Shown here piece after piece: positions 16,578 to 63,410 of a stretch of 64,000 bases of DNA; positions within the stretch are counted from its first letter, which is position 1; each line of letters opens with the position of its first letter. This DNA is from Eubacteriales bacterium (GTDB taxonomy: Bacteria > Bacillota > Clostridia > Oscillospirales > CAG-272): NCBI GenBank assembly GCA_045660185.1, contig JAZRDI010000101.1:17723-81722 (forward strand), read 5' to 3'. A model generated the notes under the pieces. It did no database searches, was not told where the DNA came from, and was given only the letters and a program-made list of their open reading frames with translations. The translations under genes were made by a program, and so were the position numbers.

Positions 16578-16955
16578 GTGACTGGGCTTGTAAGCCGGGT
16601 TCTGTACGCCTTGCGGCGCAGCAATCATCTATCTTCACTTGACGTCACCGTCAAGTTCAAGCCTTTCGGCTCTGCCACCATAATTACTTCCGCGAGCAGC
16701 AGATCGAATTACTCCGAGAATTAAGGTGTTGCATCGAATAGGGTTTACAGCGGATCTATGTTACCATAGAAACGGGTGAGCTCTTACCTCGCCTTTCCAT
16801 CCTTACCGTACAAGTACGGCGGTTTATTTCTGGTGCACTATCCCGTAGGTCGCCCCAGACTGACGTTATCAGTTATCCTGCTCTATGATGCCCGGACTTT
16901 CCTCACGATAAGACCTTTCGGCATGTTATCGCGCGATTGCCCCGCCCAGTCCCAA
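16578..16955 (-). ncRNA. rnpB: RNase P RNA
   Basis: Universally conserved RNase P blocks are present on the minus strand: GAGGAAAGTCCGGGC (rc of 16890-16904), GTAAGAGCTCACC (rc near 16774-16793) and ACAGAACCCGGCTTA (rc of 16591-16605). P1 pairing joins 5' GACTGGGC to 3' GCCCAGTC. Ends are approximate, within about 10 nt. Confidence 0.9.
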
Positions 16956-35617: not shown

Positions 35618-35644
35618 ACATCCTCCGTGTGCTAATGCATAGAT

Positions 35645-36829
35645 CTATTTTTTGTAACGAATTTTTAACAATAGTTTTTTGATTTTTTTTGGAACGCTGT
35701 ATTTTAATTTTCCGATAAGAATTTGCTTTCTGTTACTCTTTTTAAAATTGCGCTGTATAGTTTCTGCCGGAAGCTTGTGATGCTCTTCTAACATATTGTT
35801 TCTATTGTAACGCGAGCGAGTTGGTGAAGTAAGTTGCTTGTTATATTTCGTTGCAATTTCCAATGAAACCTGATGTTTATGCAAGTTTAAATTTTTGAAT
35901 ATCTCTGTTGCCGCATTACTATTTAAAAGTACAAGCGAACATCCTTTTTCGGTGTTAAACGGAATATCAACGCCTTCCGCTCCCCAAAAATCTCCCAAGG
36001 TGAAATCTCCCGGTCTGTCTAAATTAGCATATTGACATGAATAGCAGCTATCTCTGTAAATTGAAGCGCCATGATAATAGTAGAAGTAGTAATAATTTGA
36101 GAAGTAATACTGCTTTTTCTCGTAGAGCTTGCTGTTTGACTTCTTAAAACTTGCAATTCCGGCAGCGCTCCAACCCGAGTTCTTTTTAGACCGGAAATTG
36201 TAATCGGTACATACTGCGCTTTCTTCTTTTTCCAAAAACTCTATAAATTTATCAAAATAAGCTTGTGAGGCTACACCATGACACACCAAGTCAACGGTAA
36301 GTAAATTCGTATAATCTTTTTGCAGATAATTTTTTAAGCCAGCAATTTGACAAGGCGTTCCGGAATACAAAACCTGTTTTCCCGCTTTGAGATCTGTTTC
36401 ACATTTTTTATATGTATCGCACGTATTGCTTTGCACATATTTTGAACCAAACAAAGCGGAAAGGGATGTTTTATTATCAATTCTGATGTGCGTAGCTTGC
36501 AGATGGTTGGTATATGCACAGCCGTATACGATACCGCCGTTGTTCAAAACATAAAGTGCTATTGCACCGAAGACACCACCACTGGTTGCTTGCATCAACA
36601 TATTATCCTCTGTGTTTGCACAAGCATACGCTGTGGGTGTATTAACTTTATTTACATGCTTTTCGATAGGGCAAACCTTGTCACACAAACCGCAATCTAT
36701 ACACTTTGTTGTATTTACGCTTGGATATAAAAATCCATTATCGTTATTTTTTAGTTCAATGCAATTTTCGGGACACTTTTGAATGCAAGCGCCACAAGCT
36801 GTACATTTCTCGTAGTTAACTTTAATCAT
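35645..36829 (-). CDS. coenzyme F420 hydrogenase/dehydrogenase beta-subunit-like 4Fe-4S protein
   Basis: 394 aa. Two ferredoxin motifs (CTACGACIQKCP, CIDCGLCDKVCP) followed by a FrhB/FdhB-like domain. Confidence 0.75.
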   Translation of the reverse strand: MIKVNYEKCTACGACIQKCPENCIELKNNDNGFLYPSVNTTKCIDCGLCDKVCPIEKHVNKVNTPTAYACANTEDNMLMQATSGGVFGAIALYVLNNGGIVYGCAYTNHLQATHIRIDNKTSLSALFGSKYVQSNTCDTYKKCETDLKAGKQVLYSGTPCQIAGLKNYLQKDYTNLLTVDLVCHGVASQAYFDKFIEFLEKEESAVCTDYNFRSKKNSGWSAAGIASFKKSNSKLYEKKQYYFSNYYYFYYYHGASIYRDSCYSCQYANLDRPGDFTLGDFWGAEGVDIPFNTEKGCSLVLLNSNAATEIFKNLNLHKHQVSLEIATKYNKQLTSPTRSRYNRNNMLEEHHKLPAETIQRNFKKSNRKQILIGKLKYSVPKKIKKLLLKIRYKK

Positions 36830-37928
36830 CGGATAACGCTCCTTTGAGATAATTTAGAGAATTATTACGCTTTTCACCGACTATTACATTAACTTTATTG
36901 AAGTCGATATGTTTGTTTGAAATCGTATTCAATTCAGAAAAATCATCGAGCACACGATCTTCTAAACCGTATTCCTTCATTAGCCATAAGAGTTTGTTTC
37001 TATTTGTGGCTTTTAGTTTTACAAACATCGCGGAATTGGTTACTATAGAAAGCACCGCACCATGGAATGTGTCTGTTATCACTTCTTCGGCGCCCACGAA
37101 CCAATCAAATATATCGAGAGGGTCAACGTTGATATTTTTGTCGCACCATTTATGATAGAAACCAACGCTATATAATTTCAATCCTTTTGCTTTGGCGTAA
37201 GCTCTAATCTTTTCCACATTCTCGCTTTCGTTCATTGTGTTGTCATAGGAATAAACAAGAATATATTTTTCTTTAGTTTCTTTTTTGCTTTCTCTCGCGA
37301 AATTTATTTGATCGACATAGCCATACAGAAGAACAGGGTCGCAAACAATAGGAACATCTCTATCGGTGAAGTGTTTTACGATAGACTGTGAGTTTTTGTC
37401 TCTAACAGAACAATTTGAAATGTGAGTTAAGCCAGCTTCAACGAATTCTTCTGCATACATATCACTGATAAACTCTTTCGTTGTTGAACCAAAACTCGCT
37501 GCGTATGATATAACTTTTTTGCAGGGAATACCCATTCCATAAAACCACGGATTAAGCCCTGGCTCTATACTGAATATCTCGTCACTTCCAATTACCACAA
37601 GCTCTAAGTCTTTAGCGTGTGAATAATATTCTCCAATCAAATTTTGATTGGAACGGAAGTTTTTTAAGATGGAACGCTTTTTCATGTTGTATATTGTTCT
37701 GCCGATACCTTTTTGAATAAGATACTTAAAATAAGTTGGAATTGAAGCTAACGTGATGTTGTATTTTTTTGAGGCGTTTTCTGCCATAAAGTCATAATTT
37801 TTTCGGTATCTTAAAGCTTTAGCTTCGTATCCGAGTTCGCCGAGTACTTTTGAAAGAGCATACATTTGTAGTTGAGCTCCGTGATTGTGTACATCATAAT
37901 GAGTTATGATACCGGTCTTCTTTTGCAT
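36822..37928 (-). CDS. polysaccharide pyruvyl transferase family protein
   Basis: 368 aa. N-terminus GIITHYDVHNHGAQLQ and the C-terminal TDTFHG motif of the pyruvyl transferase family. 8-nt overlap with the downstream Fe-S gene. Confidence 0.7.
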   Translation of the reverse strand: MQKKTGIITHYDVHNHGAQLQMYALSKVLGELGYEAKALRYRKNYDFMAENASKKYNITLASIPTYFKYLIQKGIGRTIYNMKKRSILKNFRSNQNLIGEYYSHAKDLELVVIGSDEIFSIEPGLNPWFYGMGIPCKKVISYAASFGSTTKEFISDMYAEEFVEAGLTHISNCSVRDKNSQSIVKHFTDRDVPIVCDPVLLYGYVDQINFARESKKETKEKYILVYSYDNTMNESENVEKIRAYAKAKGLKLYSVGFYHKWCDKNINVDPLDIFDWFVGAEEVITDTFHGAVLSIVTNSAMFVKLKATNRNKLLWLMKEYGLEDRVLDDFSELNTISNKHIDFNKVNVIVGEKRNNSLNYLKGALSDD

Positions 37929-37929
37929 T

Positions 37930-38796
37930 TTACACCTCTTGCGCGATCTTTTTTGTAGTTTTGTTTTCTTCAGAATGATGATTTTTTCTTAGAAATTTTT
38001 TGTATGCCCATTCACGCATTTTGCTTGGCATCAAAACGTATCCGCAAAATCTTACAATACACGTCTTTGCGTACTGTCCTATGCCGATAACACGATTTTT
38101 CTTCATATACTTGAGAAGCTTCGCGCAGCTGCGATAGTATTTCATACCGCCTCGTCTGTTTGCCATATTGGAGATTCTAACGTTTACTAAAACTGAGTTT
38201 ATGTTTGCAAACACGGCATTGCTAAGATACATTTTTACCCACAAGTACCAGTCTTCAAATAAGTAAAAGCTTTCGTACGAATTAACCTTTTCCAAAGCAC
38301 TTTTTTTGAACATAACGGTGACGTGATTAAAGGGCGATCTGTTTTTAAGATACCTTGCTATGTCCTCGTGCTTTTGCGGAACTATTCTGTAATCCACGAT
38401 TTCCTCGGGAGCGTTAACGAACTCCGATATATTACCGCCTACGATATCGACCTCGGGATTGTTTGCCATAAATTCAAGCTGCTGCTCAAATCTATTTGGA
38501 ACGGATATATCATCGGTATCCATTCTTCCAACCAATTCGTTTCTGCAATACGTGAGTCCGTAACGCAAAGCATTTCCGAGACCGCCGTTTTGTTCAAGTG
38601 GCAAATATGTAAACAAGCTTGGGTAATCATCAACGTACTTGTCGATTGCGTTTTGCAATTCTTCGTAAACGAGTCCGTCGCGCACTAACACTATTTGCTC
38701 CGGCATAACGGTTTGATTAAGCAAGCTGTCAATAGCTTGAATGAAAAAGTCAACTTTTTCGTTTTTATAAACGCTCAATAAAACAGAATAGTTCAT
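37930..38796 (-). CDS. glycosyltransferase family 2
   Basis: 288 aa. YSVLLSVYKNE start and the DTDD (DxD) motif. Confidence 0.85.
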   Translation of the reverse strand: MNYSVLLSVYKNEKVDFFIQAIDSLLNQTVMPEQIVLVRDGLVYEELQNAIDKYVDDYPSLFTYLPLEQNGGLGNALRYGLTYCRNELVGRMDTDDISVPNRFEQQLEFMANNPEVDIVGGNISEFVNAPEEIVDYRIVPQKHEDIARYLKNRSPFNHVTVMFKKSALEKVNSYESFYLFEDWYLWVKMYLSNAVFANINSVLVNVRISNMANRRGGMKYYRSCAKLLKYMKKNRVIGIGQYAKTCIVRFCGYVLMPSKMREWAYKKFLRKNHHSEENKTTKKIAQEV

Positions 38797-38806
38797 TTTT
38801 TACCTC

Positions 38807-39634
38807 TTACTTCTTGATGTTATCGCGATTTCCGTCGCGCTTTAAAACAACGGAAACGGTCTTGAATATCAACTTTATGTCAAATAATAACGACGCCTTT
38901 TTTACGTAGATAGCGTCAAGTATCGCTTTGTTTTTATAGTATACGTCATCTCTGCCGACAACCTGAGCGTAACCCGAGATGCCGGGGCGAAGTTCAAATA
39001 CTCCTAGCTTGTCCCTCATAGCATTGCATTTTTCTTCGGTAAGAACGAGCGGTCTGTATCCGATGAAGCTCATTTTTCCGGTGAAAACGCACCAGAGCTG
39101 AGGGAGCTCGTCAAGCGAAAGCTTGCGTATGAATTTTCCGATTTTTGTATAGTATTGCTCGGGATTTTCAAGCAGAGAAGTCGCGCAGTCGCGAGGCGTA
39201 TCGATCTTCATCGAACGGAACTTAAGGCAATTGAACGGCTTGTATCCCTTACCCATACGTTTTTGCTTGAAGATAATCGGTCCCTTCGATTCGCATTTGA
39301 TTGCAATCGCGAGAACGAGAAAAACAGGTGAGAGAAGAAGAAGCATGATTCCTGATGCAAAAATATCGAACGCGCGCTTAACAAATCGATAAAAATAGCG
39401 CTTCTTTGTATTTTGCTCGAAGCTTTCGATATAGTCCGCGTAGCATTCGTTGGGGAACTCCTTAATGTAATCAAAGTTACCTTCAAAGACCTTTCTTGTC
39501 AAATCTTCTCTGTCAGATTCGTCTGTGACGAATGATATTTCTGTTTTTTCCGTATCAGCCGTTTGATTTTCGGTTGCTTTTTCCTCTGTGTCTGTGTTAA
39601 GCTCCGTAACCTGTTCTTTAATCAAAGTATCCAT
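38807..39634 (-). CDS. undecaprenyl-phosphate sugar phosphotransferase (priming 'bacterial sugar transferase')
   Basis: 275 aa. Acidic N-terminal extension, one re-entrant/TM helix, and the motif DELPQLWCVFTGKMSFIGYRP. Confidence 0.85.
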   Translation of the reverse strand: MDTLIKEQVTELNTDTEEKATENQTADTEKTEISFVTDESDREDLTRKVFEGNFDYIKEFPNECYADYIESFEQNTKKRYFYRFVKRAFDIFASGIMLLLLSPVFLVLAIAIKCESKGPIIFKQKRMGKGYKPFNCLKFRSMKIDTPRDCATSLLENPEQYYTKIGKFIRKLSLDELPQLWCVFTGKMSFIGYRPLVLTEEKCNAMRDKLGVFELRPGISGYAQVVGRDDVYYKNKAILDAIYVKKASLLFDIKLIFKTVSVVLKRDGNRDNIKK

Positions 39635-45394: not shown

Positions 45395-45423
45395 TTGACA
45401 AACGGATTTTGTGGTGCTATAAT
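45395..45423 (+). promoter_or_regulatory. consensus sigma-A promoter of the SipW/TasA-like locus
   Basis: TTGACA (45395-45400), 17-nt spacer, TGcTATAAT extended -10 (45415-45423). Confidence 0.7.
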
Positions 45424-45516: not shown

Positions 45517-46332
45517 ATGGAAATTATGCTTCAAACGGTAATTATCGTCTTTATGTTGTTTCTTTGCTCGCTTTGTCTCTTTGCGGTATTGGTTATTGCA
45601 AGAGATATGATTGCAGAGAGTATGGCAAAGCGCAAAAATGATTTTGCACCGGAAGCACCCACTCCCGCTAAGGAGCAAATCATAAAGGAGGTAACCGTAA
45701 TCAAAGAGGTTCCCGTAAAGAGCGAAACCGTTGTTATAGAGCCGTCTGCACCTGAGGCTGCACCGGTGATTGAGGAGGAAAAGCCCGAGCCAATGCCCGA
45801 GCCCGAACCCGAGGTTGTTGCGGAATTTGTTGTTGAAGAAGAACCCGTTCTTTCACCGGACGATCCCAACGCGGTAAAATTCTCAACGAATCAGCTTACA
45901 ATGGAAGAGAAATATTCTATGCTCTCTACTGAACACAAAGGATATTTTGATGCAATTGCAAAGCACGCTATGAGCAAAGAAGGAACTAAAGTTAATATGT
46001 CAAAGAACTACTACGATTATAAGGTAGGTTTGACAAGACTTGTCCGAATGAGTATCAAGCGCGGAGAAATCATTTGCGAGTTTATATTCATTGATAGAGA
46101 TTTCAAAAATTACGCAAGCCAAGCAGATCTTAAGATAAAATCTACAGGTTCAACGATAAAGATTACTGAGCCCGCAGCGGTCGGCGTGGCAAAGGATGGT
46201 ATTGACTTAGTATTTACGCAGATGGAAGAGGAAAGAGAATATAAGAAGCAGCAGGCTCGTGAAAAGCGCCGTGCCAAGAGATTGGCAGAAAACGCTGAAA
46301 CTATTGAAAAGAAAGAGACTGTGAATGTCTGA
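45517..46332 (+). CDS. membrane-anchored accessory protein in the TapA position, unknown family
   Basis: 271 aa. N-terminal TM helix, a Pro/Glu/Val-rich linker (PEPMPEPEPEVV), a globular domain and a basic coiled tail. The stop overlaps the sipW-like start by 8 nt. Confidence 0.6.
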   Translation: MEIMLQTVIIVFMLFLCSLCLFAVLVIARDMIAESMAKRKNDFAPEAPTPAKEQIIKEVTVIKEVPVKSETVVIEPSAPEAAPVIEEEKPEPMPEPEPEVVAEFVVEEEPVLSPDDPNAVKFSTNQLTMEEKYSMLSTEHKGYFDAIAKHAMSKEGTKVNMSKNYYDYKVGLTRLVRMSIKRGEIICEFIFIDRDFKNYASQADLKIKSTGSTIKITEPAAVGVAKDGIDLVFTQMEEEREYKKQQAREKRRAKRLAENAETIEKKETVNV

Positions 46333-47038
46333 TAAAAGCATTCTTGGTTCAACAAAGGGAGAGAAAGCCGTCAGCATTGTAGCCATCGTGGTGTCAGTGC
46401 TCGTTATTCCGATGCTTCTTATAAACTGCATCTTAATAATTGCAAGTGCTTTTAATCCCGAGAAAATACCATCTATTGGCAAAAATATTCCCTTAATAGT
46501 TTTGACCGAATCTATGGAACCCGAAATTCATGACGGTGACCTTATAGTTTGCAAAATGGCAGACGTTAAGAGCATAACCGAGGGCGATGTTATCTCGTAT
46601 TATGACCCCGACGGTAATGGCAAAAGCATAGTAACGCATAGAGTTATAGGGGTAACCGAGAACAATGGAAGCCTCTTGTTTGAAACACAGGGTGACAACA
46701 ATAATATAAAGGACAGATATCCCGTTCCCGAAGAAAACGTTATCGGAGTATGGACAGGCTTAAACATCAGATTTCTTGGTAGCATCATTATGTTTATGCA
46801 GTCAACTCTTGGGCTCATACTATGCATAGCAGTGCCCATTTTGGTTGTGGTTGTAGTATATATGGTAAACAAGAAACGTAGTGATAACGTCAATAAACGT
46901 GATATTGAAGCGCTAAAAGCAGAGCTTGAAGCTTTGAAGAGCGCAAAGGAGAGTGAAGTTTCAGCATTAGCAGAGAATACCTCTTCTGAAAAAGAAAGCG
47001 GCGAGGGCGAGCAGCCTTCGCAAAACGGTACTGTTTAA
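46325..47038 (+). CDS. sipW: signal peptidase I, SipW (ER/archaeal) type, copy 1
   Basis: 237 aa. N-terminal TM, catalytic Ser box LTESMEPEIHDGDLIV, His box THRVIG, a C-terminal TM and an acidic tail. Confidence 0.85.
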   Translation: MSDKSILGSTKGEKAVSIVAIVVSVLVIPMLLINCILIIASAFNPEKIPSIGKNIPLIVLTESMEPEIHDGDLIVCKMADVKSITEGDVISYYDPDGNGKSIVTHRVIGVTENNGSLLFETQGDNNNIKDRYPVPEENVIGVWTGLNIRFLGSIIMFMQSTLGLILCIAVPILVVVVVYMVNKKRSDNVNKRDIEALKAELEALKSAKESEVSALAENTSSEKESGEGEQPSQNGTV

Positions 47039-47137
47039 GGTTATATTTTATAAATACTTTATACATATCATTATTTAGTTATAATAAGTCCCAAGGCTTA
47101 CTATATAAAACCAAAATATAACGAAAAGGAGAAAAGA

Positions 47138-48040
47138 ATGAAAAAAATCTTAGCAAAAAACAAGTTCCTAAAGATCGCATCGCTTTTAGTGGTAGTTTTT
47201 CTCATTACAACGTGCGTAATAGGAACGACCTTCGCGAAGTACACGACCAGTTCATCCGGAAATGACAGCGCAAAGATTGCAAAGTGGGGCATCGAGGTAT
47301 CTGCAAGTGGTTCTCTCTTCGGTAAGAACTACGGTAATACGATAGTTGCTTCCAATGCTTCTGATATTACCGTAAAAGCAGAAACTAATGCTGACTACAA
47401 CGTAGTTGCTCCCGGCACTAAGAATGACACCGGATTCCAGGTAAAAATATCCGGTACTCCTGAGGTTAATTATGAGATGACCTCTAAGGCAGAAGAGGTT
47501 AAGGATATTTTCCTTAGCGCAGGTACATACGGTATGATGGTTGAGAAGTATGGTCTCAATGCAGCTTCTGATGTTAAAGGACTTTACACCTATAATACTA
47601 CAAGCAAAGTCTACACCAAATGCACAACTTCCACCTGGACTGAAGGTACTACTTACTACACTCTTCAAGATTCGGTTGAGATTGATGGCACGTACTATCC
47701 TATCCAGTGGAAACTTAATGGTACTGACTACGACACTCTCGAAGAGGCATTGGCTGTAATTACAACAGCAACCAACGGCACGAAGGTTGCCGTCGTAGAT
47801 TCTGCTGATGCAGAGTATACGCTTACTTGGTCTTGGGCGTATGAGCAGACCGATAAAGAAAATAAGCTGGATACTGTTCTCGGAAATCTCGCTGCCGGAA
47901 AAACAAATGTTGTTAAAAGAGATACAAAAACATCTGCGCTTGACGAAGAGAAATACAAATCTGTCATTGATTTTAATTCTGATGACTACAGCCTTGAAGT
48001 TGGATTCAAGTACAATATTACAATCAATCAGGTTGACTAA
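47138..48040 (+). CDS. secreted TasA/camelysin-like fibre subunit candidate 1
   Basis: 300 aa. SipW-type signal (KKILAKNK...GTTFAKYTTSS). Motifs VVAPGT..F.V.ISG and Y.L.W.WAY, and a terminal ITINQVD strand. Paralog of the 49014-49748 product. Confidence 0.65.
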   Translation: MKKILAKNKFLKIASLLVVVFLITTCVIGTTFAKYTTSSSGNDSAKIAKWGIEVSASGSLFGKNYGNTIVASNASDITVKAETNADYNVVAPGTKNDTGFQVKISGTPEVNYEMTSKAEEVKDIFLSAGTYGMMVEKYGLNAASDVKGLYTYNTTSKVYTKCTTSTWTEGTTYYTLQDSVEIDGTYYPIQWKLNGTDYDTLEEALAVITTATNGTKVAVVDSADAEYTLTWSWAYEQTDKENKLDTVLGNLAAGKTNVVKRDTKTSALDEEKYKSVIDFNSDDYSLEVGFKYNITINQVD

Positions 48041-48089
48041 TTTAAAAAACGCCAAAAAAACCTATTAAAAAGAAGGGAAGGAGGAGCGT

Positions 48090-48953
48090 ATGTCATTTAA
48101 ATCATCCGGTGGCGCGGTAAAAGAAACCGCGAGACAGCAGAGAAAAGCGTGGGTATGGATAATGCTCATGGTAAATATAGTTTTTCTGCTTATGTTGATG
48201 ACCTTGGGAATCATAGCTCTTCGCGTAGGAAACTACCTTCCCGAAACTGACATAGTGTTTGTTGTAGGTAAGGATACGTCGGTAACCGTCGGTTCCGAAG
48301 ACAAAGCCGCGTGGGAAGGCAAAGAAAAGCTCAAGATCTTTTCAACCTCTCACAAAAACGATAAAGGTGAGGTAACCGTAGAATCTTCCGATTCCTCGAA
48401 CGTTATCGCGCCGGGAACCGAATCGGTCTATGAATTTACAATGTATAACAACAGCAATATCGCAGTCTTCTATGAGGTTGATTTTGATTTCCTTGTAGAA
48501 GTAGGCGGTATAAAGCAGAGCGATGAAGAGGAAGAAAGATTTCCTCTCGAGCTTCGCATGCGTACCAAAACCGATGACTTCGTTATAGGATCGGAAAATG
48601 AATACGTTCCTATTTACGATGCTTGTCTTTTGGGGCATAGAAGAGTGCTTGGTGCCGAGAGCTACGAAACGTTTGTTGTTGATTTACGCTGGAAGTTTGA
48701 CGGTGACGATATTACAGATACAGAGCTTGGTGATCTATCGGCTGAAAAAGGCGTTATGGCGTTTTTATCAATTGATACGTACGCCGAGGAGCATATTGAT
48801 CCTGCCGTAGTCGGTGGAACGAGAATCCACGATGAAAAAACCGAAATTGGCGGAAGTATTCGTTGGATGTGGCTTCTTCTTTTGATGATCAACACTGCGG
48901 TTATCATATTCTACGTTTCCTGGCTTATGAACAAACGCTTGCAAAAGTGGTAA
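48090..48953 (+). CDS. bitopic membrane protein with a TasA-like ectodomain
   Basis: 287 aa with N-terminal TM (WVWIMLMVNIVFLLMLMTLGIIAL) and C-terminal TM (WMWLLLLMINTAVIIFYVSWL). The core shares VIAPGT..Y.F.M.N, L.W.F and DTELG with its neighbours. Confidence 0.6.
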   Translation: MSFKSSGGAVKETARQQRKAWVWIMLMVNIVFLLMLMTLGIIALRVGNYLPETDIVFVVGKDTSVTVGSEDKAAWEGKEKLKIFSTSHKNDKGEVTVESSDSSNVIAPGTESVYEFTMYNNSNIAVFYEVDFDFLVEVGGIKQSDEEEERFPLELRMRTKTDDFVIGSENEYVPIYDACLLGHRRVLGAESYETFVVDLRWKFDGDDITDTELGDLSAEKGVMAFLSIDTYAEEHIDPAVVGGTRIHDEKTEIGGSIRWMWLLLLMINTAVIIFYVSWLMNKRLQKW

Positions 48954-49013
48954 AGAATTAAATTCTTTATATAAAAAACAAAACAAAAATTTTTACTTAT
49001 GAGGTGAAAACAA

Positions 49014-49748
49014 ATGAAAAAGATTATGAAAAACAAAAAGTTAGTTATGATTTTAGCTATGGTACTTATGGTATCTCTTGTTGTTGGAATGGGCGCTATG
49101 ACCTATGCAAAGTATGTAAGCAGCTATGAAGTTGAAACGTATACAGCTACAGCTGCTAAGTGGGGCTTTGTTGTTACTACTAATACAAGAGAAATGTTTG
49201 CAACTGCATACGGTGAAGATGATGCCAATGAAAATGCAACTATCGATGAAAATGGTAATATTGTTATAAGAGTAGATTCTTCGGCGGGTGACATTGTTGC
49301 TCCCGGAAGCACAGGTTATCTCTTGATCGAGACGTCCGGCGTTGCAGAAGTTAAAGCAAAGATGACCTTCAACTTCACTGTTGCACAGACTATCAGCGAT
49401 GGCGCTGGTTACAATCCTATTCAGTGGGCTATTGTAGAATCCGGTAATGCTCCTGCTGACGGTGACTGGAAAACCGTTGTTGCTGGTGGAACAATTACCC
49501 AAGAGTTTGATCTCGCACCTGGTGCTACCGCTCCCGGTAACTACGAGCTTCACTGGCGTTGGGCATTCAGCACAAGCCCCGAAAATGACCAGAAGGATAC
49601 CGTTATCGGTATGAAGGCCGAGAATGCTACCGTGACTCCTGCAGCTGTAAAGGCAGCTACCGGTATGACCATTGACGATGAAGCGTTGGCTAAATATACT
49701 ACCGCTATTGAGTTCACCGGAACCGTTAAGGTAGAGCAGGTTCAGTAA
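49014..49748 (+). CDS. secreted TasA/camelysin-like fibre subunit candidate 2
   Basis: 244 aa. Signal ...GAMTYAKYVSS, then AKWG, IVAPGS, YNPIQW, YELHWRWAF, DTVIG and a terminal VKVEQVQ. Strong codon bias leaves a stop-free antisense frame. Confidence 0.65.
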   Translation: MKKIMKNKKLVMILAMVLMVSLVVGMGAMTYAKYVSSYEVETYTATAAKWGFVVTTNTREMFATAYGEDDANENATIDENGNIVIRVDSSAGDIVAPGSTGYLLIETSGVAEVKAKMTFNFTVAQTISDGAGYNPIQWAIVESGNAPADGDWKTVVAGGTITQEFDLAPGATAPGNYELHWRWAFSTSPENDQKDTVIGMKAENATVTPAAVKAATGMTIDDEALAKYTTAIEFTGTVKVEQVQ

Positions 49749-49778: not shown

Positions 49779-49812
49779 TATCTCCCTTCTCCCGAGAGGG
49801 GGAGGGGAGATA
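49779..49812 (+). terminator. GC-rich intra-locus hairpin (possible partial terminator or attenuator)
   Basis: TATCTCCCTTCTCCC-GAGA-GGGGGAGGGGAGATA, a 15-bp stem including G-U pairs, 31 nt after the subunit-2 stop. The T-tract is weak. Confidence 0.5.
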
Positions 49813-49916: not shown

Positions 49917-50579
49917 ATGTCTAACAATCAAACTATTGATAAAACCAACAGCACTCAAACCAAGAATGCCCTGGCTATTACCAAGAAAGTCCTCGGTATT
50001 ATAGGATATGTCATTCTTGGCTTGATTTTAACCGTAGTTTTATGGCTCGGCTTTGACAAATTCATTTTAAAATCACCCGTTCCGTCAATGTTCGGGTATG
50101 CAACTCTTACCGTTGAAACGGGAAGCATGGAAAGTACGCTTCAAATAGGAGACCTTATCGTAATCAAAAAGACTGATGATTACAAAATAGGCGATATAGT
50201 TACCTATATTAGAGAGGGAGATAAAATTCCCACAACTCACCGTATCGTCAACTACGCAGGTGAAGATGCCTTTGTATTGAAGGGCGATGCCAACAATTCA
50301 AAGGATTTTGATGACGTGACCAAAGATATGATTATCGGTGAGGTCGTTAAGGTATATCCTAAAGCAGGCCTCTTCTCAAAATGGATTAAGGCTGAAGGCT
50401 GGATATACATAGTAGCTATTTTGGTTCTTCTCGCTATCGGAATGCTCGTTATGAACGTAGAAGACAATAACGAAACAAAAGAAGAAAACAAAGAAAACGC
50501 TGATGAAAACGCCGGCGAAATAAATACAAACGAAGAGTCTGAAACGAGTAATGATTCTTCTCAAAATGCAACTGAATAA
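49917..50579 (+). CDS. sipW: signal peptidase I, SipW (ER/archaeal) type, copy 2
   Basis: 220 aa with VETGSMESTLQIGDLIVIKK, THRIVN, a C-terminal TM and an acidic Asn/Glu-rich tail. Confidence 0.85.
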   Translation: MSNNQTIDKTNSTQTKNALAITKKVLGIIGYVILGLILTVVLWLGFDKFILKSPVPSMFGYATLTVETGSMESTLQIGDLIVIKKTDDYKIGDIVTYIREGDKIPTTHRIVNYAGEDAFVLKGDANNSKDFDDVTKDMIIGEVVKVYPKAGLFSKWIKAEGWIYIVAILVLLAIGMLVMNVEDNNETKEENKENADENAGEINTNEESETSNDSSQNATE

Positions 50580-50668: not shown

Positions 50669-52561
50669 ATGAAAGAAAAAATAAAAAACTACGCAAAAAA
50701 GCTACTAAAGTTTACAAAAAGCCATAAATATTCATGCACTTGCTTCCTTCTTGTAATTGCTATGATGCTTTCCGGAAGCTTGTCGCTCGCTAAATACGTT
50801 ACGGCTAATCCGCTTAACGAAAATCCGAGCGCAGCAGCTTTGCACAACAATGCAAAGATAGATAACGTATCTGCGCTTTCATTTACAAACATGGCGTTCT
50901 GGGGCGGACTTGAGGACATCGGAGTATCGATGAACTCTCTTCGTAACGTTACCATGAGTGTAAATAATTTTGAAATGGTTGATGGAAAGCAGCTTGTTAC
51001 AGAAGTAACAACCGAGTACTCTTTAATTTTTGAGCTTCCGCAGAACTTTGCAGACAAGCTGGCTCTTCAGCTTATCGACGAAGCTGATAAAGCAATGACC
51101 TCGCAGTTTGTTCTTTCGGAATTTTTAAGCAGTGTAAGTCCATCAAAGCCGAGTGCTATTGTAAAAACGCAAGATCCAAAGTATAACGGTAAAAAATATT
51201 CGGGTATAAATCAAAACGGTGACATTGTCTCCTATATGACAGTAAAAGTAGATTATGACGTTTCAGACGGAAGCTATACTCTAACCTCTCAGGATAGAGA
51301 CGGCACCGTTATAACTATAGAGCCTTTTATAAAAGAGGATATGGAGCAAACTCTTTATTTCCGTCTTTGGGACGTAGAAGACAAGGGACTTGAAAACGTG
51401 GAGCTTGAAAGCGGAACTCTTTTGCCGCCGCTTATTCTTACCTTTAACGAAGATGTTCCTTGCTATAGAATCACTGTTAGACGCCCCGATTTCCGACTTG
51501 GACCTGGAGATCCCGAGACTGATACTTATAAGCTCAGTCTTGCACCGGTAGATGCGCTTCGCGATACGCACCTTGGCGGTTATCTTATGAGTATGGGTTC
51601 AAATGGCGAATTGGCTTATGCAAGAAGCATCCGCGAGGGTGAAAAAATATATCTCTCAACCGTAACGGAGACAGTAAGCACAAATGACGGTTCTGACGAT
51701 CGTGTAACTCTTATGGGTAGCATCCCCGTTCATATTGTTGGACGTGAAGAGACAAATGATCTCGGTGAAAGCTATCGAGAAACTTCGTACCGCGAAGCCT
51801 TGGTATTAACTAAAACGGACGTTACCGAAACGACCGGTGAAGCTTACACAAAGTATTATACCTACCGAACTTCTTCAAGACGTTGGAGTAATTCCGACAA
51901 AAACAAAGGTCTTTACAAAATTGAGAATTATCTCAAAACTACTACCTCAACGATAACAACGTACGAAATAAGAGTTAGAGAAGTAATGACATCCTCCGAA
52001 ACTGTAAGAACCGATTCTGTTTCCGTTGATAAAACCCACGTAGAGCAGACGGTTACAAAAACGGTAAATACCGAGAGATTCCTGATCGATGCTCTTGTAA
52101 AAGAAGACGTGACGGTTACCTACACAGAATATTATAAGTATTATGAGAGAAGAGCGACGGGCGAAGATTGGGGCGATCCCAAGGATAAATTCTCTTATAA
52201 TTTCACAGGTTCATATCCAAAGTCTTATGAAATGGAAAACCCACCTAAAGTCGAGGGCACCTATATTCCTCTTTCCACAGATGAAATTGCGAAGCTTTCC
52301 AACATGAAAGAGATAAAGGACAAATATCTCGTTTCCCAATCAACAACTAATAGCTTCAAGAGAGAAAAAAATTATACTCCGTCAATGCAGTCCATAATTC
52401 CTACGTCTCTTTATACGGCAGACCCCTCAATCTCGCTTGATCCATTGACTACGCATATTACAACTCAATCCGGAGTTATTCAAAAATATTACATATCCAC
52501 CTCTTACTCAAAAAACTATCCCTTCTTCGTGAAGGTACATTTTGAGCAGGTTGCTCACTAA
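50669..52561 (+). CDS. large secreted protein with a SipW-type signal (minor subunit or adaptor candidate)
   Basis: 630 aa. Signal ...GSLSLAKYVTAN, a Thr/Tyr/Val/Glu-rich beta-type central region, and a C-terminus FFVKVHFEQVAH like the small subunits. Confidence 0.55.
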   Translation: MKEKIKNYAKKLLKFTKSHKYSCTCFLLVIAMMLSGSLSLAKYVTANPLNENPSAAALHNNAKIDNVSALSFTNMAFWGGLEDIGVSMNSLRNVTMSVNNFEMVDGKQLVTEVTTEYSLIFELPQNFADKLALQLIDEADKAMTSQFVLSEFLSSVSPSKPSAIVKTQDPKYNGKKYSGINQNGDIVSYMTVKVDYDVSDGSYTLTSQDRDGTVITIEPFIKEDMEQTLYFRLWDVEDKGLENVELESGTLLPPLILTFNEDVPCYRITVRRPDFRLGPGDPETDTYKLSLAPVDALRDTHLGGYLMSMGSNGELAYARSIREGEKIYLSTVTETVSTNDGSDDRVTLMGSIPVHIVGREETNDLGESYRETSYREALVLTKTDVTETTGEAYTKYYTYRTSSRRWSNSDKNKGLYKIENYLKTTTSTITTYEIRVREVMTSSETVRTDSVSVDKTHVEQTVTKTVNTERFLIDALVKEDVTVTYTEYYKYYERRATGEDWGDPKDKFSYNFTGSYPKSYEMENPPKVEGTYIPLSTDEIAKLSNMKEIKDKYLVSQSTTNSFKREKNYTPSMQSIIPTSLYTADPSISLDPLTTHITTQSGVIQKYYISTSYSKNYPFFVKVHFEQVAH

Positions 52562-52652: not shown

Positions 52653-55600
52653 ATGAAAACGCTCAAAGAAAAGATATTATCCTTATGGCGTAAATTAGTG
52701 AATGCTATGAAAAAACCGCGTGTAGCAATAGCAACACTTTCATCTGCCTTTGTTCTTATAGCGGCAGTAGCTATAGCGCCGTCAGTTGCGCGATATGTGT
52801 CAACGGTTATAGCATACTTTAACGATAACGGTGAGGAAAAGGAGTATATGGACTTTACCGTCAACACGGTGTTCGTCGTTGACGACCAGAACGACCTTTT
52901 TGCTGCAATCAACCAAGGATATTCATACATACAGATTTCCGGAGATTTGCATAATCCGTTGGTTATCACTCAGTCCCCAAAAAACCTTACTACAGACCTT
53001 ATCATTGACCTAAACGGTGAAGAACTTTACCGCCACGGAACCGAGCCTATCTTTGAAATAGACGAAGGTGTTCGTCTTACTATTACGGACACTTCGGAAG
53101 ATCAGACAGGAACCCTTTATAATCCCACGGGGTCGGTGCTTAAGATTGACGGCGGAAACTTGACGGTCGTTTCGGGAAAATTCGAGTGCGGCCCCAGATA
53201 CTCGGAATACTACACCTATAACAATAACATCCTTTCCGAACGTTCTCATAAGCGTACCATAGTGGCTGATGAGCCCGAAAAGGTTGATCTTTATATTAGA
53301 CAAGGAAGCGGAGAAAGTGCTACCTTCACGCATTATACCGAAGTCACTGTGCCGATTATAACGGCGTACAACGATTTGTCTTTAGGTTTAGACCATCCTC
53401 ACGGAAACGTATATTTTGATTGGACCGTACAAGTCGGCTCCGAAAAAGATGAGTCTAAAAACTTTAAAATCCCGGCTGACACCTATTGCTTTTACACAAC
53501 CGACCAGGATGATTCTTATGAAGTTATGAAAATGACGGCTTATAAAGCCGATTGGTACTATACTTATCACGTAAAGCATGATACCTTCGAATATGTTGCA
53601 ACGCCTGACGAGAATTCGATAGAAGTAACCGTTTACGGCTATGAAAACACTATTGAAAACGCCGAGACCCGAGCCGACCCTGACGATATAGATGCGCCGT
53701 CTAACAATTTCTTTGCCGCAATAAAAATGTACGGCGGAGTATTTGATATACTTTACGGTGACTTCTACAACTACTTCGGTGTAAACACTACCGCCTGTGT
53801 TGATATGATGGGCGGAGAGCTTATCATAAAAGAAGGAAACTTCTCGACCCGTGTTCCAAACGCTTCTTCACATACTCACCATGCTGTTGACGCAAAGGAG
53901 AGTGACGCTGAAGCATTTGACCCATTTGACTATTTCAATGATTTCTTTTGGGGGAAAACAAACTTTGGAACAAGCGACCCCGATTATGAATTTTATGAAG
54001 ACGGTATTCGCGCTCAAAAGGGCGAAGGATACGGAATTCTTACAAGTGGCGATGCCAAGATAACAATAGGTAACGGAAACTTCTATTCATCGAATAACAA
54101 CCTCATTCACATGCAGGACGGAACCCTCGATATCGGCGGCGGTGAATTCTATAAGACGATTACGAAGCACTTGGGTGAATATGCGCATAACGATACCGCT
54201 ATATTTATGCACGATGGCGACTTGAATATAGGAAATGCAAATTATACGATTTACGGTGACTATGCAAGAGCTATTCGAATGATTGACGGAAAGCTCAACA
54301 TAAACGGCGCGTCTTGTATTATTCAAGGCGACTATGCATACGCTGTATATTCAACTATCCCCGGTGATAATCTTACACTTACCGATATTAAGTTTGATAT
54401 GTACGCAAGAACCTCTGTCGGTAGACTGACAGGTATATATTCCACTGCAAACGAGAACGGTGAAAGCGGTACCGTTGCGGTAAGAACCTCGGAGGGCGGT
54501 GAGTCGTACATCAATATTCAAGGTCACGGCTCTGTCGGAGTGTACGTAGATGGCGGTGACGTTTACAGCCAGGGCTGCGAATATACGATAGAAGGTAACG
54601 AATCCGCGGGAATATATGCAAATGAAGGAAAGGTTAAAATTGACGGCGGACACATTGACCTTGTCAGCAACATTAACTGCTACGGAATCTACGCTATAAC
54701 CAGAAATGAAGACGTAGAGGTGCAGATTGACGTTACTAATGCTCATATTGACGTTGGATACGTCGATAGCTCAACTCCGCCCACAACGGTTCATACGGAC
54801 TGCAAAGCGTGTATCGGAGTTTTCCTCGGATCTGCTAACCCAAACAGTCACGTAACGTTAAACAACTCAAACGTTCATTCCTACGAGATAGGCCTTGCGC
54901 TTTCAGGCGGTAACCTTCTCGTTCGTGACTCGGACTCAACTCCGAATAATATTAAAACAAACCGCGGCTCTGCGGTTGCCGTATCAAACGGAGACCTCGT
55001 ATTCGCAGAGGGCGGAACGTACGAGCTTACCTCGTTTAATACTACTCAGGGAAATTATCAGAACTCGTATGAAATGACCGTTCCGTATCTTAAAGAAACT
55101 AACGGCCAATACGAGATCGTAGCGGTAACCTACGATAATACTGACGGAATTTACGTCAATGGTGGCTCATTCACCTCTCACGGTAATTTGAAAATGGTCC
55201 ATACCGGACTTCAGAATCAGCTTCACTATTACGACGAAAGAGGAAATGAGCTGACCTATGTTTATAATTCTCTTGTTGTAACAAGCTATGCCGTTCGAGT
55301 CGTTGGTGGTAACGTAAATATAACAAAAGCTAACATCACGAACCATTCGGGAGGCGGAATATGCTGCTCCGGTGACGGAACGATAACTCTCGGTAACGAA
55401 AACACGGTTCAAAATGACATAATAGTTCTTGCTGCAGGCGAGGATTACGTTGAATATGAAAACGGAGAACATAACGGTACGTATAATTCCGTTGGAACGT
55501 ATGTTTCAGACGGATGGCAGAGCCAAAAGAGTATTACAGGCGGTCATGCAATAGAGCTCAACGGCGGAGATATTATAGTTTACGGTGGAAGCTATACCGC

Positions 55601-63169: not shown

Positions 63170-63236
63170 TTTTATCACCTCCATACAATAAACGAAAATA
63201 CGAAACTTTAAACTACGTTTAAAATACCTCATAATC

Positions 63237-63265
63237 ATTATAACACAAACGTAAATTTGAGTCAA
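63237..63265 (-). promoter_or_regulatory. sigma-A-type promoter upstream of the paralog array
   Basis: On the minus strand: TTGACT (63265-63260), 17-nt spacer, TATAAT (63242-63237). No comparable promoter or terminator is visible in the inter-copy spacers. Confidence 0.55.
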
Positions 63266-63410
63266 TCGAAAAGCTGGTAACTCATTAAAAAACAGCAAAA
63301 CAAACAAAAAACAATAGAGTAATTTGTGTATAAACGAGATGATAACTGTAGTTTTTGTTTCTGTGATTATTAACAAATTGTAAATTTTATCAAAAACTTA
63401 AAAGTTTCTA

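What the first reader, a model, noticed from the sequence alone, without database searches (positions are those of the whole stretch)
47138..49748. Two paralogous small subunits share a motif skeleton consistent with TasA-like strand-exchange subunits
The 300-aa and 244-aa proteins align by eye through these blocks:
- MKKI...AKY signal junction
- AKWG[IF]
- [IV]VAPG[TS]
- SG..EV...MT
- Y.PIQW
- Y.L.W.WA[YF]
- DTV[LI]G
- a terminal hydrophobic strand ending [NE]QV[DQ]

The PG...F.[VI]...G block and the final alternating strand resemble TasA (LKPGDKLTKDFQFENNGSL...KLQFSFEATQ, recalled from memory). Both genes show the stop-free antisense frame that goes with strong codon bias, as gap and the ABC ATPase do. 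This suggests high expression, as expected for major structural subunits. The 300-aa form carries a ~60-residue insertion (GMMVEKYGLNAASDVKGLYTYNTTSKVYTKCTTSTWTEGTTYYTLQDSVEIDGT) absent from the 244-aa form.
Basis: partly seen in the sequence, partly recalled or inferred. Interest (0 to 1): 0.6.

Follow-up and report, generated by a model that had tools for sequence, protein, structure and literature searches.

The report
SipW-dependent TasA-like surface fibre cassette
The two small proteins are true paralogues and the likely building blocks of a cell-surface fibre, part of a conserved, unannotated eight-gene cluster with two dedicated signal peptidases in uncultured gut Clostridia; the cluster is a distant relative of the Bacillus TasA biofilm fibre system, but strand-exchange assembly is inferred, not shown.

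Summary
They are paralogues: mature-region Smith-Waterman z = 9.4, and profile-profile probability 99.9%, E 8.6e-37.

Neither protein matches Pfam, NCBIfam or PDB sequences. Neither AlphaFold model finds TasA by Foldseek. Direct profile comparison with a TasA/CalY alignment gives nothing once signal peptides are removed.

Context and intermediate sequences still point to the TasA/BsaA superfamily:
- Both genes sit in a cassette conserved in essentially every related locus long enough to show it: membrane protein, SipW-1, 300-type, a two-TM paralogue (48090-48953), 244-type, SipW-2, a ~630-aa protein and a ~1200-aa protein.
- All four secreted proteins share a T-[FY]-[AS]|[KR]-Y junction that mirrors TasA's T-[FW]-A|x-F.
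- Small paralogues in sister loci link the family to TasA (hhalign 78%, E 1.8e-5) and give a sub-threshold hit to the BsaA model TIGR04090 (E 7.7e-5).

Most likely mechanism (inferred): SipW cleavage exposes a conserved N-terminal donor strand, the subunits polymerise, and the two-TM paralogue anchors the fibre.

Codon bias is moderate, not strong.

Verdict: a new variant of a known kind, of moderate interest.

The parts
45395..45423 (+). Candidate operon promoter: TTGACA, 17-nt spacer, TATAAT, with an extended -10 TG
   Evidence: 12 of 12 consensus match in the pattern scan. Sequence read. This is a consensus match only, not proof of function.
45517..46332 (+). 271-aa protein with an N-terminal TM segment. 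It is the first conserved gene of the cassette and its function is unknown.
   Evidence: Homologues lie immediately upstream of sipW-1 in 24 related loci, with jackhmmer E from 1e-90 to 1e-121. No Pfam or NCBIfam match. Its end overlaps the sipW-1 start.
46325..47038 (+). SipW-type (ER/archaeal-type) signal peptidase I, paralogue 1
   Evidence: TIGR02228 E 1.7e-30 and NF046067 SipW E 4.6e-32. The SMEP, THR and GDNN motifs are visible in the translation. This type sits upstream of the 300-type gene in all complete related loci.
47058..47085 (+). Promoter-like site in front of the 300-aa gene
   Evidence: 10 of 12 match in the scan. A GGAG ribosome-binding site follows. Weak evidence.
47138..47236 (+). 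Signal peptide of the 300-aa protein (residues 1-33). Predicted SipW cleavage is between A33 and K34.
   Evidence: Junction logo over 46 family members: P-3 T 97%, P-2 F/L, P-1 A 100%, P+1 K/R, P+2 Y 100%, P+4 T 100%. The cleavage position is inferred by analogy with TasA A27|A28.
47138..48040 (+). 300-aa subunit (A2 family), the universal and probably major fibre subunit
   Evidence: 1907 homologues, none with a Pfam domain. Present in every complete related locus. The AF2 core is a beta-sandwich with pLDDT above 90. CAI rank 5 of 49.
47237..47332 (+). Conserved mature N-terminus KY..(D)SA+IAKWG...LFG..Y (residues 34-65), the candidate donor strand and linker
   Evidence: Invariant residues Y35, T37, D43, A45, A48, W50, G51, G58, F61, G62 and Y65. 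Block-mean pLDDT is about 31-81 across residues 31-70 in the monomer model, against more than 90 for the core. In the small paralogues (S) of sister loci, which carry the same conserved N-terminal A+VAK[FY] motif, this segment aligns with TasA 28-47. The donor-strand role is inferred.
47522..47671 (+). Lineage-variable insertion (about residues 129-178) that forms an extra four-stranded beta subdomain
   Evidence: It is a gap against the 244-aa protein. AF2 places strands at 129-137, 150-153, 158-161 and 173-182, with block-mean pLDDT about 95-97. It is absent from many A2 orthologues.
48090..48953 (+). 287-aa third paralogue (A3) with N- and C-terminal TM segments, the probable membrane anchor or base of the fibre
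   Evidence: hhalign against the 244 family gives 94.5%, E 8e-8. A broader A3-like ectodomain profile scores 98.5% and 98.3% against A1 and A2. It is the most conserved gene of the cassette, at 50-63% identity. The family has 1010 clusters at 50% identity. Relatives carry GG[IL]PxTGD sortase signals at the same C-terminal position.
49014..49748 (+). 244-aa subunit (A1 family), a second, accessory fibre subunit. Its signal peptide is residues 1-32, with predicted cleavage between A32 and K33.
   Evidence: 126 homologues with no Pfam domain. Present in about two thirds of related loci, always between A3 and sipW-2. Junction P-3 T 100%, P-2 Y, P-1 S/A, P+1 R/K, P+2 Y 100%. AF2 core pLDDT above 90. 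CAI rank 4 of 49.
49779..49812 (+). Strong stem-loop (15 pairs, 8 GC) after the 244-aa gene, a candidate attenuating terminator
   Evidence: Top terminator-like hit in the scan. Sequence read. The T-tract is imperfect.
49917..50579 (+). SipW-type signal peptidase I, paralogue 2
   Evidence: TIGR02228 E 3.6e-22. The SME, THR and GDAN motifs are present. This type co-occurs with the A1, 630-aa and 1212-aa genes. Loci that lack them carry a divergent second SipW instead.
50669..52561 (+). 630-aa secreted protein with the same junction (SLA|KYVT), possibly a fourth, greatly expanded paralogue
   Evidence: Conserved downstream of sipW-2 in 16 loci. It ends ...FVKVHFEQVAH, like the A1/A2 terminal strand. 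The small-paralogue profile scores 25%, E 7.8e-4 against its N-terminal region. No Pfam or NCBIfam match.
52653..56291 (+). 1212-aa secreted protein with the same junction (SVA|RYVS), a candidate adhesin or accessory component
   Evidence: Conserved as the last cassette gene in 13 loci. It shares the junction motif. No family match and no detectable similarity to the subunits.

Best explanation
The 300-aa and 244-aa proteins are paralogous, secreted beta-sandwich subunits of a surface fibre. The fibre is encoded by a conserved eight-gene cassette: TM protein, sipW-1, 300-type, two-TM paralogue, 244-type, sipW-2, a ~630-aa protein and a ~1200-aa protein. The cassette occurs in uncultured gut Christensenellales-like Clostridia and is a very divergent, unannotated branch of the TasA/BsaA (SipW-dependent) superfamily.

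Proposed mechanism:
1. The precursors are exported by Sec.
2. A dedicated SipW-type peptidase cuts at T-[FY]-[AS]|[KR]-Y.
3. Cleavage frees a conserved N-terminal segment (KY...A+[VI]AKWG...).
4. As in TasA residues 28-38, this segment inserts as a donor strand into the beta-sandwich of a neighbouring subunit, giving a non-covalent homo- or heteropolymer.
5. The 287-aa paralogue, held in the membrane by its terminal TM helices, serves as the anchor or nucleation point.
6. The two large proteins that share the junction are accessory or adhesive components.
7. The two peptidases probably serve two substrate classes: P-1 Ala with KYTT for the 300-type, and P-1 Ser/Ala with [KR]Y[IV]S for the others.

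Shown: paralogy, cassette conservation, the SipW identity of the peptidases, the shared junction, and the beta-sandwich core. Inferred: the exact cleavage site, homology to TasA (probable), strand exchange, fibre formation, and the roles of the individual proteins.
For: **Paralogy.** Shown.

**Two SipW-type peptidases flank the genes.** TIGR02228 E 1.7e-30 and 3.6e-22.

**Synteny.** The order sipW1, A2, A3, [A1], sipW2 is conserved in essentially all of the related loci long enough to show it, among 33 loci, nearly all labelled Clostridia, Eubacteriales or Christensenellaceae MAGs. The upstream 271-aa gene is conserved in 24 loci, and the two large downstream genes in 16 and 13 loci.

**Shared junction.** Four secreted proteins in the window share the junction. 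Its logo mirrors TasA/CalY at P-3 T, P-2 aromatic, P-1 A/S and P+2 aromatic.

**Superfamily coherence.**
- A3 against A1: 94.5%.
- Broad A3-like ectodomain profile against A1 and A2: 98.5% and 98.3%.
- Small paralogues (S) against A2 and A3: 93.6% and 92.4%.

**Link to TasA, signal peptides removed.**
- S against a 47-sequence TasA/CalY alignment: 78%, E 1.8e-5, end to end. The score is 37.7 against 10.6 +/- 2.1 for column shuffles, 10.1 for the reversed alignment, and 19.0 +/- 4.0 for block shuffles.
- A3 against TasA: 27%, E 6.5e-4, with the motifs aligned in the same order.
- A TasA-family HMM run against all 1227 locus ORFs ranks only cassette proteins in its top 26: A3 proteins, small paralogues and one A2.
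- One S protein hits TIGR04090 (BsaA family) at E 7.7e-5 and TIGR04087 (TapA) at 0.012.
- TasA is one of only five PDB sequences reached by the S profile.

**Structure models.** AF2 gives a confident beta-sandwich core and a low-confidence, highly conserved N-terminal segment.

**Anchor role of A3.** Relatives carry sortase sorting signals at the same C-terminal position, and a natural A3-SipW fusion exists.

**Literature.** TasA polymerises through its mature N-terminal strand (PMC9674648). Operons with SipW and several TasA/BsaA paralogues are described in bioRxiv 10.1101/2024.11.04.621531 and PMC12518558.
Against: - Neither protein, nor 95 family members, reaches Peptidase_M73, TIGR04088 or TIGR04090.
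- Direct A1 or A2 against TasA/CalY profile comparison is at noise level without the signal peptide: P 0.29 and 0.7.
- Foldseek against the PDB gives no hit with E below 1e-3 for either model. TasA is absent from the top 50, and the archaeal TasA-like pilin 7ueg_A appears only at rank 48 (E 0.033, TM 0.29/0.36).
- The link to TasA rests on seven small paralogues from other loci and on probabilities of 27-78%. The reversed-profile control for A3 scored 23.3 against 31.9 observed. One of 80 block shuffles reached the S score.
- The PG..N.G motif also occurs in unrelated PapD/ASH-type Ig domains.
- No multimer model, no expression data and no experimental work exist for any member. BsaB shows that a TasA-like paralogue need not polymerise.
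Confidence: 0.6

Rival explanations
1. The proteins are SipW-exported cell-surface or matrix proteins with an Ig-like beta-sandwich fold, for example adhesins, glycan binders or envelope proteins. They share the export route but do not polymerise. The cassette would then be a secretion and display module, not a fibre.
For: - The Foldseek top hits are generic carbohydrate-binding modules, adhesin domains and Ig-like sandwiches.
- Pfam sub-threshold hits of the relatives are generic Ig domains.
- The PG..N.G motif is shared with HYDIN ASH domains.
- BsaB, a TasA-like paralogue, forms only dimers (bioRxiv 10.1101/2024.11.04.621531).
Against: - The mature N-terminus is the most strongly conserved segment of both families, yet it is poorly ordered in the monomer models. 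That pattern is expected for an intermolecular strand.
- Several paralogues, a membrane-anchored paralogue and dedicated peptidases in fixed order match known fibre operons.
- The end-to-end alignment of the S paralogues with TasA includes the donor-strand region.
Confidence: 0.25
2. The subunits polymerise by strand insertion and are then locked covalently by an intermolecular isopeptide bond, as proposed for BsaA. The candidate residues are conserved in both families: K49, E109/E112, and D245/D195 or N96.
For: - K49 is nearly invariant in both families, E109 is invariant in the 300 family with E112 nearly invariant in the 244 family, and D245/D195 in DT..G is invariant or nearly invariant.
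- BsaA uses an N-E-K triad across the donor-strand interface (bioRxiv 10.1101/2024.11.04.621531).
Against: - The spatial proximity of these residues could not be examined, because no coordinates or multimer model were available.
- N96 is not conserved in the 244 family.
- Most members of the TasA/BsaA family lack such bonds, according to the same preprint.
Confidence: 0.1
3. The proteins are spore-associated (coat or appendage) proteins. TasA itself was first described as the spore-coat-associated protein CotN.
For: - The PDB name of TasA entry 5OF1 is 'Spore coat-associated protein N'.
- One related locus lies near spoVG.
Against: - No sporulation genes lie in or next to the cassette in the window.
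- The candidate promoter matches the sigma-70 housekeeping consensus.
- Neighbouring genes differ between loci, while the cassette itself is constant.
Confidence: 0.04

Closest known systems
TasA / CalY (Bacillus biofilm fibre subunits; Pfam PF12389 'Peptidase_M73, camelysin'; PDB 5OF1, 8AUR)
   Same: - Small secreted beta-sandwich proteins encoded next to SipW.
- The junction has Thr at P-3, an aromatic residue at P-2, Ala at P-1 and an aromatic residue at P+2.
- A conserved mature N-terminus, a PG...N.G strand pair and a final x-phi-x-phi-x-[EN]-Q strand occur in the same order.
   Different: - No match to PF12389 and no Foldseek match.
- P+1 is K/R and P+2 is Y rather than F, and there is no F-[NS]-D.
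- The N-terminal segment is longer and carries an AKWG motif.
- A helical insertion precedes the last strand.
- The cassette has two SipW genes and a TM-anchored paralogue instead of TapA.
BsaA / BsaB of Clostridium perfringens (NCBIfam TIGR04090; sipW-bsaA-bsaB-bsaC operon)
   Same: - Clostridial, with an operon headed by sipW.
- Several TasA-like paralogues per operon, and a large accessory secreted protein.
- An anchored paralogue: an LPXTG-bearing BsaB-like gene in some strains.
- One sister-locus small paralogue gives its best NCBIfam hit to TIGR04090 (E 7.7e-5).
   Different: - The hit is below the family cut-off (22.5 against 60 bits), and there is none for the window's own proteins.
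- No VWA protein, no sortase, and no recognised N-E-K triad.
- Eight-gene architecture with a second SipW.
TapA (TasA anchoring and nucleating protein, TIGR04087)
   Same: The 287-aa paralogue is the obvious counterpart of a cell-associated anchor or nucleator. TapA is thought to provide the first donor strand (PMC9674648). One S paralogue hits TIGR04087 weakly (E 0.012).
   Different: The 287-aa protein has the full subunit fold plus TM helices at both ends, and it lacks the [KR]Y junction. Whether it donates or accepts a strand is unknown.
Archaeal TasA-like bundling pili (AbpA 7UEG, AbpX) and cannulae
   Same: They are chaperone-free donor-strand filaments, often encoded next to a dedicated signal peptidase I and further paralogues (PMC9245690, PMC12518558). 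AbpA (7ueg_A) is the only member of this superfamily in the Foldseek list.
   Different: The structural match is not significant (E 0.033, TM about 0.3). These systems are archaeal, and no sequence link was found here.
Sortase-assembled Gram-positive pili
   Same: Both have surface-fibre logic with an anchor, a major subunit and large accessory proteins. Distant relatives of the 287-aa paralogue carry LPXTG or SrtB sorting signals.
   Different: The window's cassette has no sortase and no LPXTG. The subunits lack pilin or E-box motifs, and signal peptidases take the place of sortases.

Membership tests
TasA/BsaA superfamily (SipW-dependent fibre subunits) | A dedicated ER/archaeal-type signal peptidase I (SipW) encoded next to the subunit gene | tested here: met
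   Two such genes flank the subunits: TIGR02228 E 1.7e-30 and 3.6e-22, and NF046067 SipW E 4.6e-32. The arrangement is conserved across the related loci.
TasA/BsaA superfamily (SipW-dependent fibre subunits) | Class-specific signal-peptide junction (T-[FWY]-A | x-[FY]) read as a residue pattern | tested here: met
   Logos from 121 cassette proteins and 44 TasA/CalY proteins agree at P-3 T, P-2 aromatic (or Leu), P-1 A/S and P+2 aromatic. They differ at P+1 (K/R) and P+4 (S/T against D).
TasA/BsaA superfamily (SipW-dependent fibre subunits) | Match to the curated family models (Pfam PF12389; NCBIfam TIGR04088, TIGR04090) | tested here: not met
   No hit for either protein or for 48 and 47 family members scanned at E up to 10. 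The only hit is one small paralogue from locus L025, sub-threshold against TIGR04090 (E 7.7e-5, 22.5 bits against a 60-bit cut-off).
TasA/BsaA superfamily (SipW-dependent fibre subunits) | Profile-profile homology to TasA/CalY outside the signal peptide | tested here: inconclusive
   Direct comparison gives P 0.29 (244 family) and 0.7 (300 family). Through intermediates: S paralogues 78%, E 1.8e-5; A3 27%, E about 7e-4. The TasA alignment used was drawn from TasA/CalY-type relatives only.
TasA/BsaA superfamily (SipW-dependent fibre subunits) | Beta-sandwich fold superposable on TasA (5OF1, 8AUR) or on AbpA/AbpX | tested here: inconclusive
TasA/BsaA superfamily (SipW-dependent fibre subunits) | Polymerisation by N-terminal donor-strand complementation into fibres | not testable with these tools
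   This needs multimer structure prediction or experiment. The only indirect support is a highly conserved mature N-terminus that has low confidence in the monomer models.
BsaA subfamily (isopeptide-locked) | N-E-K triad across the donor-strand interface | not tested
   Conserved K49, E109/E112 and D245/D195 exist. Their geometry could not be examined, and no BsaA sequence was available for alignment.
Sortase-assembled Gram-positive pilins | LPXTG sorting signal on the subunits and a sortase gene in the cluster | tested here: not met
   None of the eight cassette proteins gives a sortase or Gram_pos_anchor hit. The subunits end in ...NQVD and ...EQVQ. Only distant relatives of the 287-aa paralogue carry LPXTG.

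The most novel reading that the evidence does not exclude
The cassette encodes a previously unrecognised type of Gram-positive surface appendage. It would be a sortase-independent, chaperone-free heteropolymeric fibre. Two dedicated SipW peptidases would each license their own class of subunits. A subunit paralogue anchored in the membrane by two TM helices would form the base, and giant proteins carrying the same processing tag would decorate the fibre. The cassette is widespread in Christensenellales-like gut bacteria. It could therefore underlie their aggregation, or their physical association with partners such as methanogens; floc formation by Christensenella is reported in PMC7002349.
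Probability: 0.3. Interest if true: 0.7.

Novelty: new variant of a known kind. Interest (0 to 1): 0.5.

Why it matters
- **An uncharted family.** The 300-type family has about 1900 clusters at 90% identity. The anchor family has about 1000 clusters at 50% identity. No Pfam domain is on record for any listed homologue, the family members scanned match no relevant Pfam or NCBIfam model, and the few homologues that carry a source name are called 'hypothetical protein'.
- **A wider TasA/BsaA superfamily.** If these are fibre subunits, the donor-strand fibre superfamily extends well beyond what current family models capture.
- **A testable candidate in an uncultured gut group.** The cassette is found here in MAGs labelled Christensenellaceae or Christensenella and in unclassified Clostridia, a group known almost only from metagenomes. 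It gives a concrete candidate for adhesion or biofilm structures there.
- **A natural experiment in peptidase specificity.** Two SipW paralogues sit beside two classes of junction.
- **An annotation fix.** The [ST]-[FYL]-[AS]|[KR]-Y junction can be used to find further substrates.

Tried and rejected
1. Single-sequence and profile searches of PDB sequences with both proteins and their families found nothing relevant.
2. Pfam and NCBIfam scans of all cassette proteins and of 95 family members found only the SipW models.
3. Foldseek of both AF2 models against the PDB gave only generic sandwiches with E at or above 1e-3.
5. hhalign of the family profiles against the single TasA sequence matched only the signal peptide, or scored about 2%. 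This was rejected as uninformative. I then built a real TasA/CalY alignment from metagenome loci.
6. The first comparison that included signal peptides gave 59% for the 300 family. I rejected this as inflated by the signal peptide, because it vanished after trimming.
7. I looked for this family in the BsaA paper's supplementary family table. No Christensenell entry appears in the stored part.
8. A literature search for Christensenellaceae plus SipW returned nothing.
9. I checked for a riboswitch or other RNA element in front of the cassette. Rfam finds only RNase P elsewhere in the window.
10. The exact-sequence look-up of the 300-aa protein on assembled contigs failed, and its cluster carries no name.
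11. The idea that the 1212-aa protein contains a subunit-like domain found no support.

Full report
**What is in the sequence**

The interval 47138-49748 holds three plus-strand genes, not two: a 300-aa ORF (47138-48040), a 287-aa ORF (48090-48953) and a 244-aa ORF (49014-49748).

The similarity is well above chance:
- BLASTP gives E 4e-11.
- After removing the signal peptides, the Smith-Waterman score is 110 against 42.7 +/- 7.1 for 500 shuffles. It stays at z 8.3 when the conserved AKWG region is also removed.
- Alignments of 48 and 47 homologues match each other with hhalign probability 99.9%, E 8.6e-37.

AlphaFold2 models built from these alignments both reach mean pLDDT of about 80. They have a beta-sandwich core above 90 and the same order of core elements. 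The extra segment of the 300-aa protein (about residues 129-178) forms four confident extra strands. It is present in only some orthologues.

**Codon bias and expression**

The long antisense open frames exist and cover 88% and 95% of the two genes. The gap gene shows the same feature at 100%. Codon adaptation measured against gap is 0.42 and 0.49, fifth and fourth of 49 genes, with Nc 47.6 and 44.8. This is a moderate bias, not a strong one. The window has no ribosomal protein genes, so gap was the only reference.

A promoter-like site and good ribosome-binding sites precede the genes, and a 15-bp stem-loop follows the 244-aa gene. This fits elevated subunit expression but does not prove it.

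**Surroundings**

The genes are flanked by two SipW-type (ER/archaeal-type) signal peptidases at 46325-47038 and 49917-50579 (TIGR02228 E 1.7e-30 and 3.6e-22). Both carry the Ser, His and Asp motifs. That these are the catalytic residues rests on my knowledge of B. subtilis SipW.

The intervening 287-aa protein has TM segments at both ends. It is a distant paralogue of the two subunits: hhalign 94.5%, E 8e-8. A broader profile of its ectodomain scores 98.5% and 98.3% against the two families.

Downstream lie a 630-aa and a 1212-aa protein. Their signal peptides end in the same unusual junction as the subunits.

A pattern scan of one genome per GTDB species with the 287-aa family returned 32 loci. 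Nearly all are labelled Clostridia, Eubacteriales or Christensenellaceae MAGs, and those that name a host come from animal guts. One further locus came from a contig look-up. My HMM searches on their ORFs gave three results:
- The order sipW-1, 300-type, 287-type, [244-type], sipW-2 holds in essentially every locus long enough to show it.
- A 271-aa TM protein lies immediately upstream in 24 loci.
- The two large proteins lie downstream in 16 and 13 loci.

Loci that lack the 244-type gene have a divergent second SipW, followed by small (153-194 aa) paralogues, here called S.

**The junction**

Across 121 cassette proteins the signal peptide ends in T/S, then F/Y/L, then A/S | K/R, then Y, then I/V/T, then S/T. 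TasA/CalY proteins recovered from metagenomes end in T, then F/W/Y, then A | x, then F, then S/N, then D. The shape at P-3, P-2, P-1 and P+2 is shared. The residues at P+1 and P+4 differ.

The 300-type always has Ala at P-1 followed by KYTT. The other three classes mostly have Ser at P-1 followed by [KR]Y[IV]S. Because the second peptidase co-varies with the second set of substrates, I infer one peptidase per substrate class.

**Is it TasA-like? The negative results**

- Neither protein, nor any of 95 relatives, matches Peptidase_M73, TIGR04088 or TIGR04090.
- The PDB holds no sequence relative.
- Foldseek against the PDB gives no match with E below 1e-3. TasA is not in the top 50, and the archaeal TasA-like pilin 7ueg_A appears only at rank 48.
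- More sensitive fold libraries were unavailable.
- I confirmed my recalled TasA sequence against 8AUR and built a 47-sequence TasA/CalY alignment from real metagenome ORFs. An apparent 59% match of the 300 family disappeared once the signal peptides were trimmed: P 0.29 and 0.7.

**Is it TasA-like? The positive results**

All comparisons below were made with signal peptides removed.
- The 287-aa family aligns with TasA across the whole domain in the correct motif order: APG with KPGD, NN.N.A with N.GSL, W.F with the QMEIQF strand, and SIDTYAEE with QFSFEATQ. The probability is 27%, E 6.5e-4. The score is 31.9 against 12.7 +/- 2.3 for column shuffles, but 23.3 for the reversed profile. A more diverse profile gives the same level.
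- The S paralogues are closer. They score 78%, E 1.8e-5 against TasA/CalY, end to end from the first mature residue to the terminal Q. The score is 37.7 against 10.6 +/- 2.1 for shuffled columns, 10.1 for the reversed profile and 19.0 +/- 4.0 for 8-column block shuffles, of which one in 80 reached the observed score.
- S is itself linked to the 300-type (93.6%) and the 287-type (92.4%).
- A TasA-family HMM run against all 1227 locus ORFs ranks only cassette proteins in its top 26: A3 proteins, small paralogues and one A2.
- One S protein gives its best NCBIfam hits to the BsaA family (E 7.7e-5, below the cut-off) and to TapA (0.012).
- TasA is one of only five PDB sequences reached by the S profile. 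The stronger hits there are HYDIN ASH domains, which shows that the PG..N.G motif is generic to PapD-like Ig folds.

I conclude that membership of the wider TasA superfamily is probable, about 0.7. It is not demonstrated, and these proteins are not members of the curated TasA/camelysin or BsaA families.

**Mechanism**

In TasA, the donor strand is the mature N-terminus (residues 28-38) released by SipW. It completes the sandwich of the neighbouring subunit, and deleting it abolishes fibres (PMC9674648).

In the present families the segment right after the junction is the most conserved part of the protein: Y35, D43, A45, A48, K49, W50 and G51. In the S paralogues, which carry the same conserved N-terminal A+VAK[FY] motif, this segment aligns with TasA 28-47. 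It has low confidence in the monomer models, while the core is above 90.

From this I infer cleavage at A33|K34 in the 300-aa protein and A32|K33 in the 244-aa protein, followed by donor-strand complementation.

The 287-aa paralogue lacks this N-terminal motif and keeps a TM helix plus a basic tail at its C-terminus. In many of its roughly 1000 relatives at 50% clustering, the same position carries a GG[IL]PxTGD sortase signal. One relative is a natural fusion with SipW. It is therefore the likely cell-anchored end of the fibre, the functional counterpart of TapA or of an LPXTG-bearing BsaB-like protein (bioRxiv 10.1101/2024.11.04.621531).

The 630-aa protein ends in the same terminal-strand motif and matches the S profile weakly. 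It may be an expanded subunit. The 1212-aa protein shows no similarity beyond the junction.

None of these roles has been tested. A non-polymerising display system remains a serious rival. An isopeptide lock like that of BsaA is possible but could not be examined.

**Novelty**

SipW-linked operons with several TasA-like paralogues are already described in bacteria and archaea (bioRxiv 10.1101/2024.11.04.621531; PMC12518558; PMC9245690), so the kind is known.

What appears new:
- The branch itself, which none of the Pfam, NCBIfam or PDB-sequence searches run here recognises. The few homologues that carry a source name are called 'hypothetical protein'.
- Its fixed eight-gene architecture with two peptidases.
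- The two-TM anchored paralogue.
- The variant [KR]-Y junction, which is shared with two giant proteins.

I found no paper on it. I rate it a new variant of a known kind, with interest about 0.5.

Noticed in passing
It is 287 aa long, has TM helices at both ends, and is more conserved (50-63% identity) than the two subunits. Its wider family is very large: 1010 clusters at 50% identity. In many relatives it ends in a GG[IL]PxTGD sortase signal, where this clade has GG[ST]IRW plus a TM segment and a basic tail.
   Followed up: yes
window 45517-46332, with a promoter-like site at 45395-45423: A 271-aa protein with an N-terminal TM segment, an acidic Pro/Glu-rich linker and a conserved C-terminal domain. 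It is conserved directly upstream of sipW-1 in 24 loci and matches no family. A perfect TTGACA, 17-nt spacer, TATAAT promoter consensus with an extended TG lies upstream.
   Followed up: partly
window 50669-52561 and 52653-56291: Two large secreted proteins share the subunits' [AS]|[KR]Y junction and are conserved as the last genes of the cassette. The 630-aa protein ends ...FVKVHFEQVAH, the same terminal-strand motif as the subunits. The 1212-aa protein has no recognisable domain.
   Followed up: partly
loci L001 3369-3917, L006 11458-11931, L008 1733-2206, L010 11102-11686, L011 7986-8474, L025 11531-11992, L027 11456-12001: Variant cassettes lack the 244-type gene. They carry a divergent second SipW followed by minimal paralogues (153-194 aa as the ORFs were called), and in most of these loci by a further ~250-300-aa protein with the junction and an FYFESD motif. 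The minimal paralogues are the best sequence bridge to TasA/BsaA.
   Followed up: partly
protein P0428 (474 aa, representative library): A natural fusion, or a read-through, of a 287-type ectodomain (residues 83-284) with a SipW-type peptidase (residues 304-471). In the variant loci the two genes overlap by a few bases.
   Followed up: partly
window 16575-16952 (-): Bacterial RNase P RNA class A, 238.9 bits. It is the only Rfam match in the window at gathering threshold.
   Followed up: no
window 60138-63376 (-): Four tandem paralogous genes (236-295 aa) with nearly identical lipoprotein-like N-termini (...LALSLSIG[MI]LT[GS]C) and diverging C-terminal parts. The fourth ORF (62489-63376), as called, starts further upstream, and its lipoprotein-like motif is internal.
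   Followed up: no
window ~30000-39000 (-): A low-GC stretch (0.31-0.36 against about 0.42 elsewhere) that carries a run of minus-strand genes rich in TTA, CTA and TCA codons. It looks like a surface-polysaccharide gene island.
   Followed up: no
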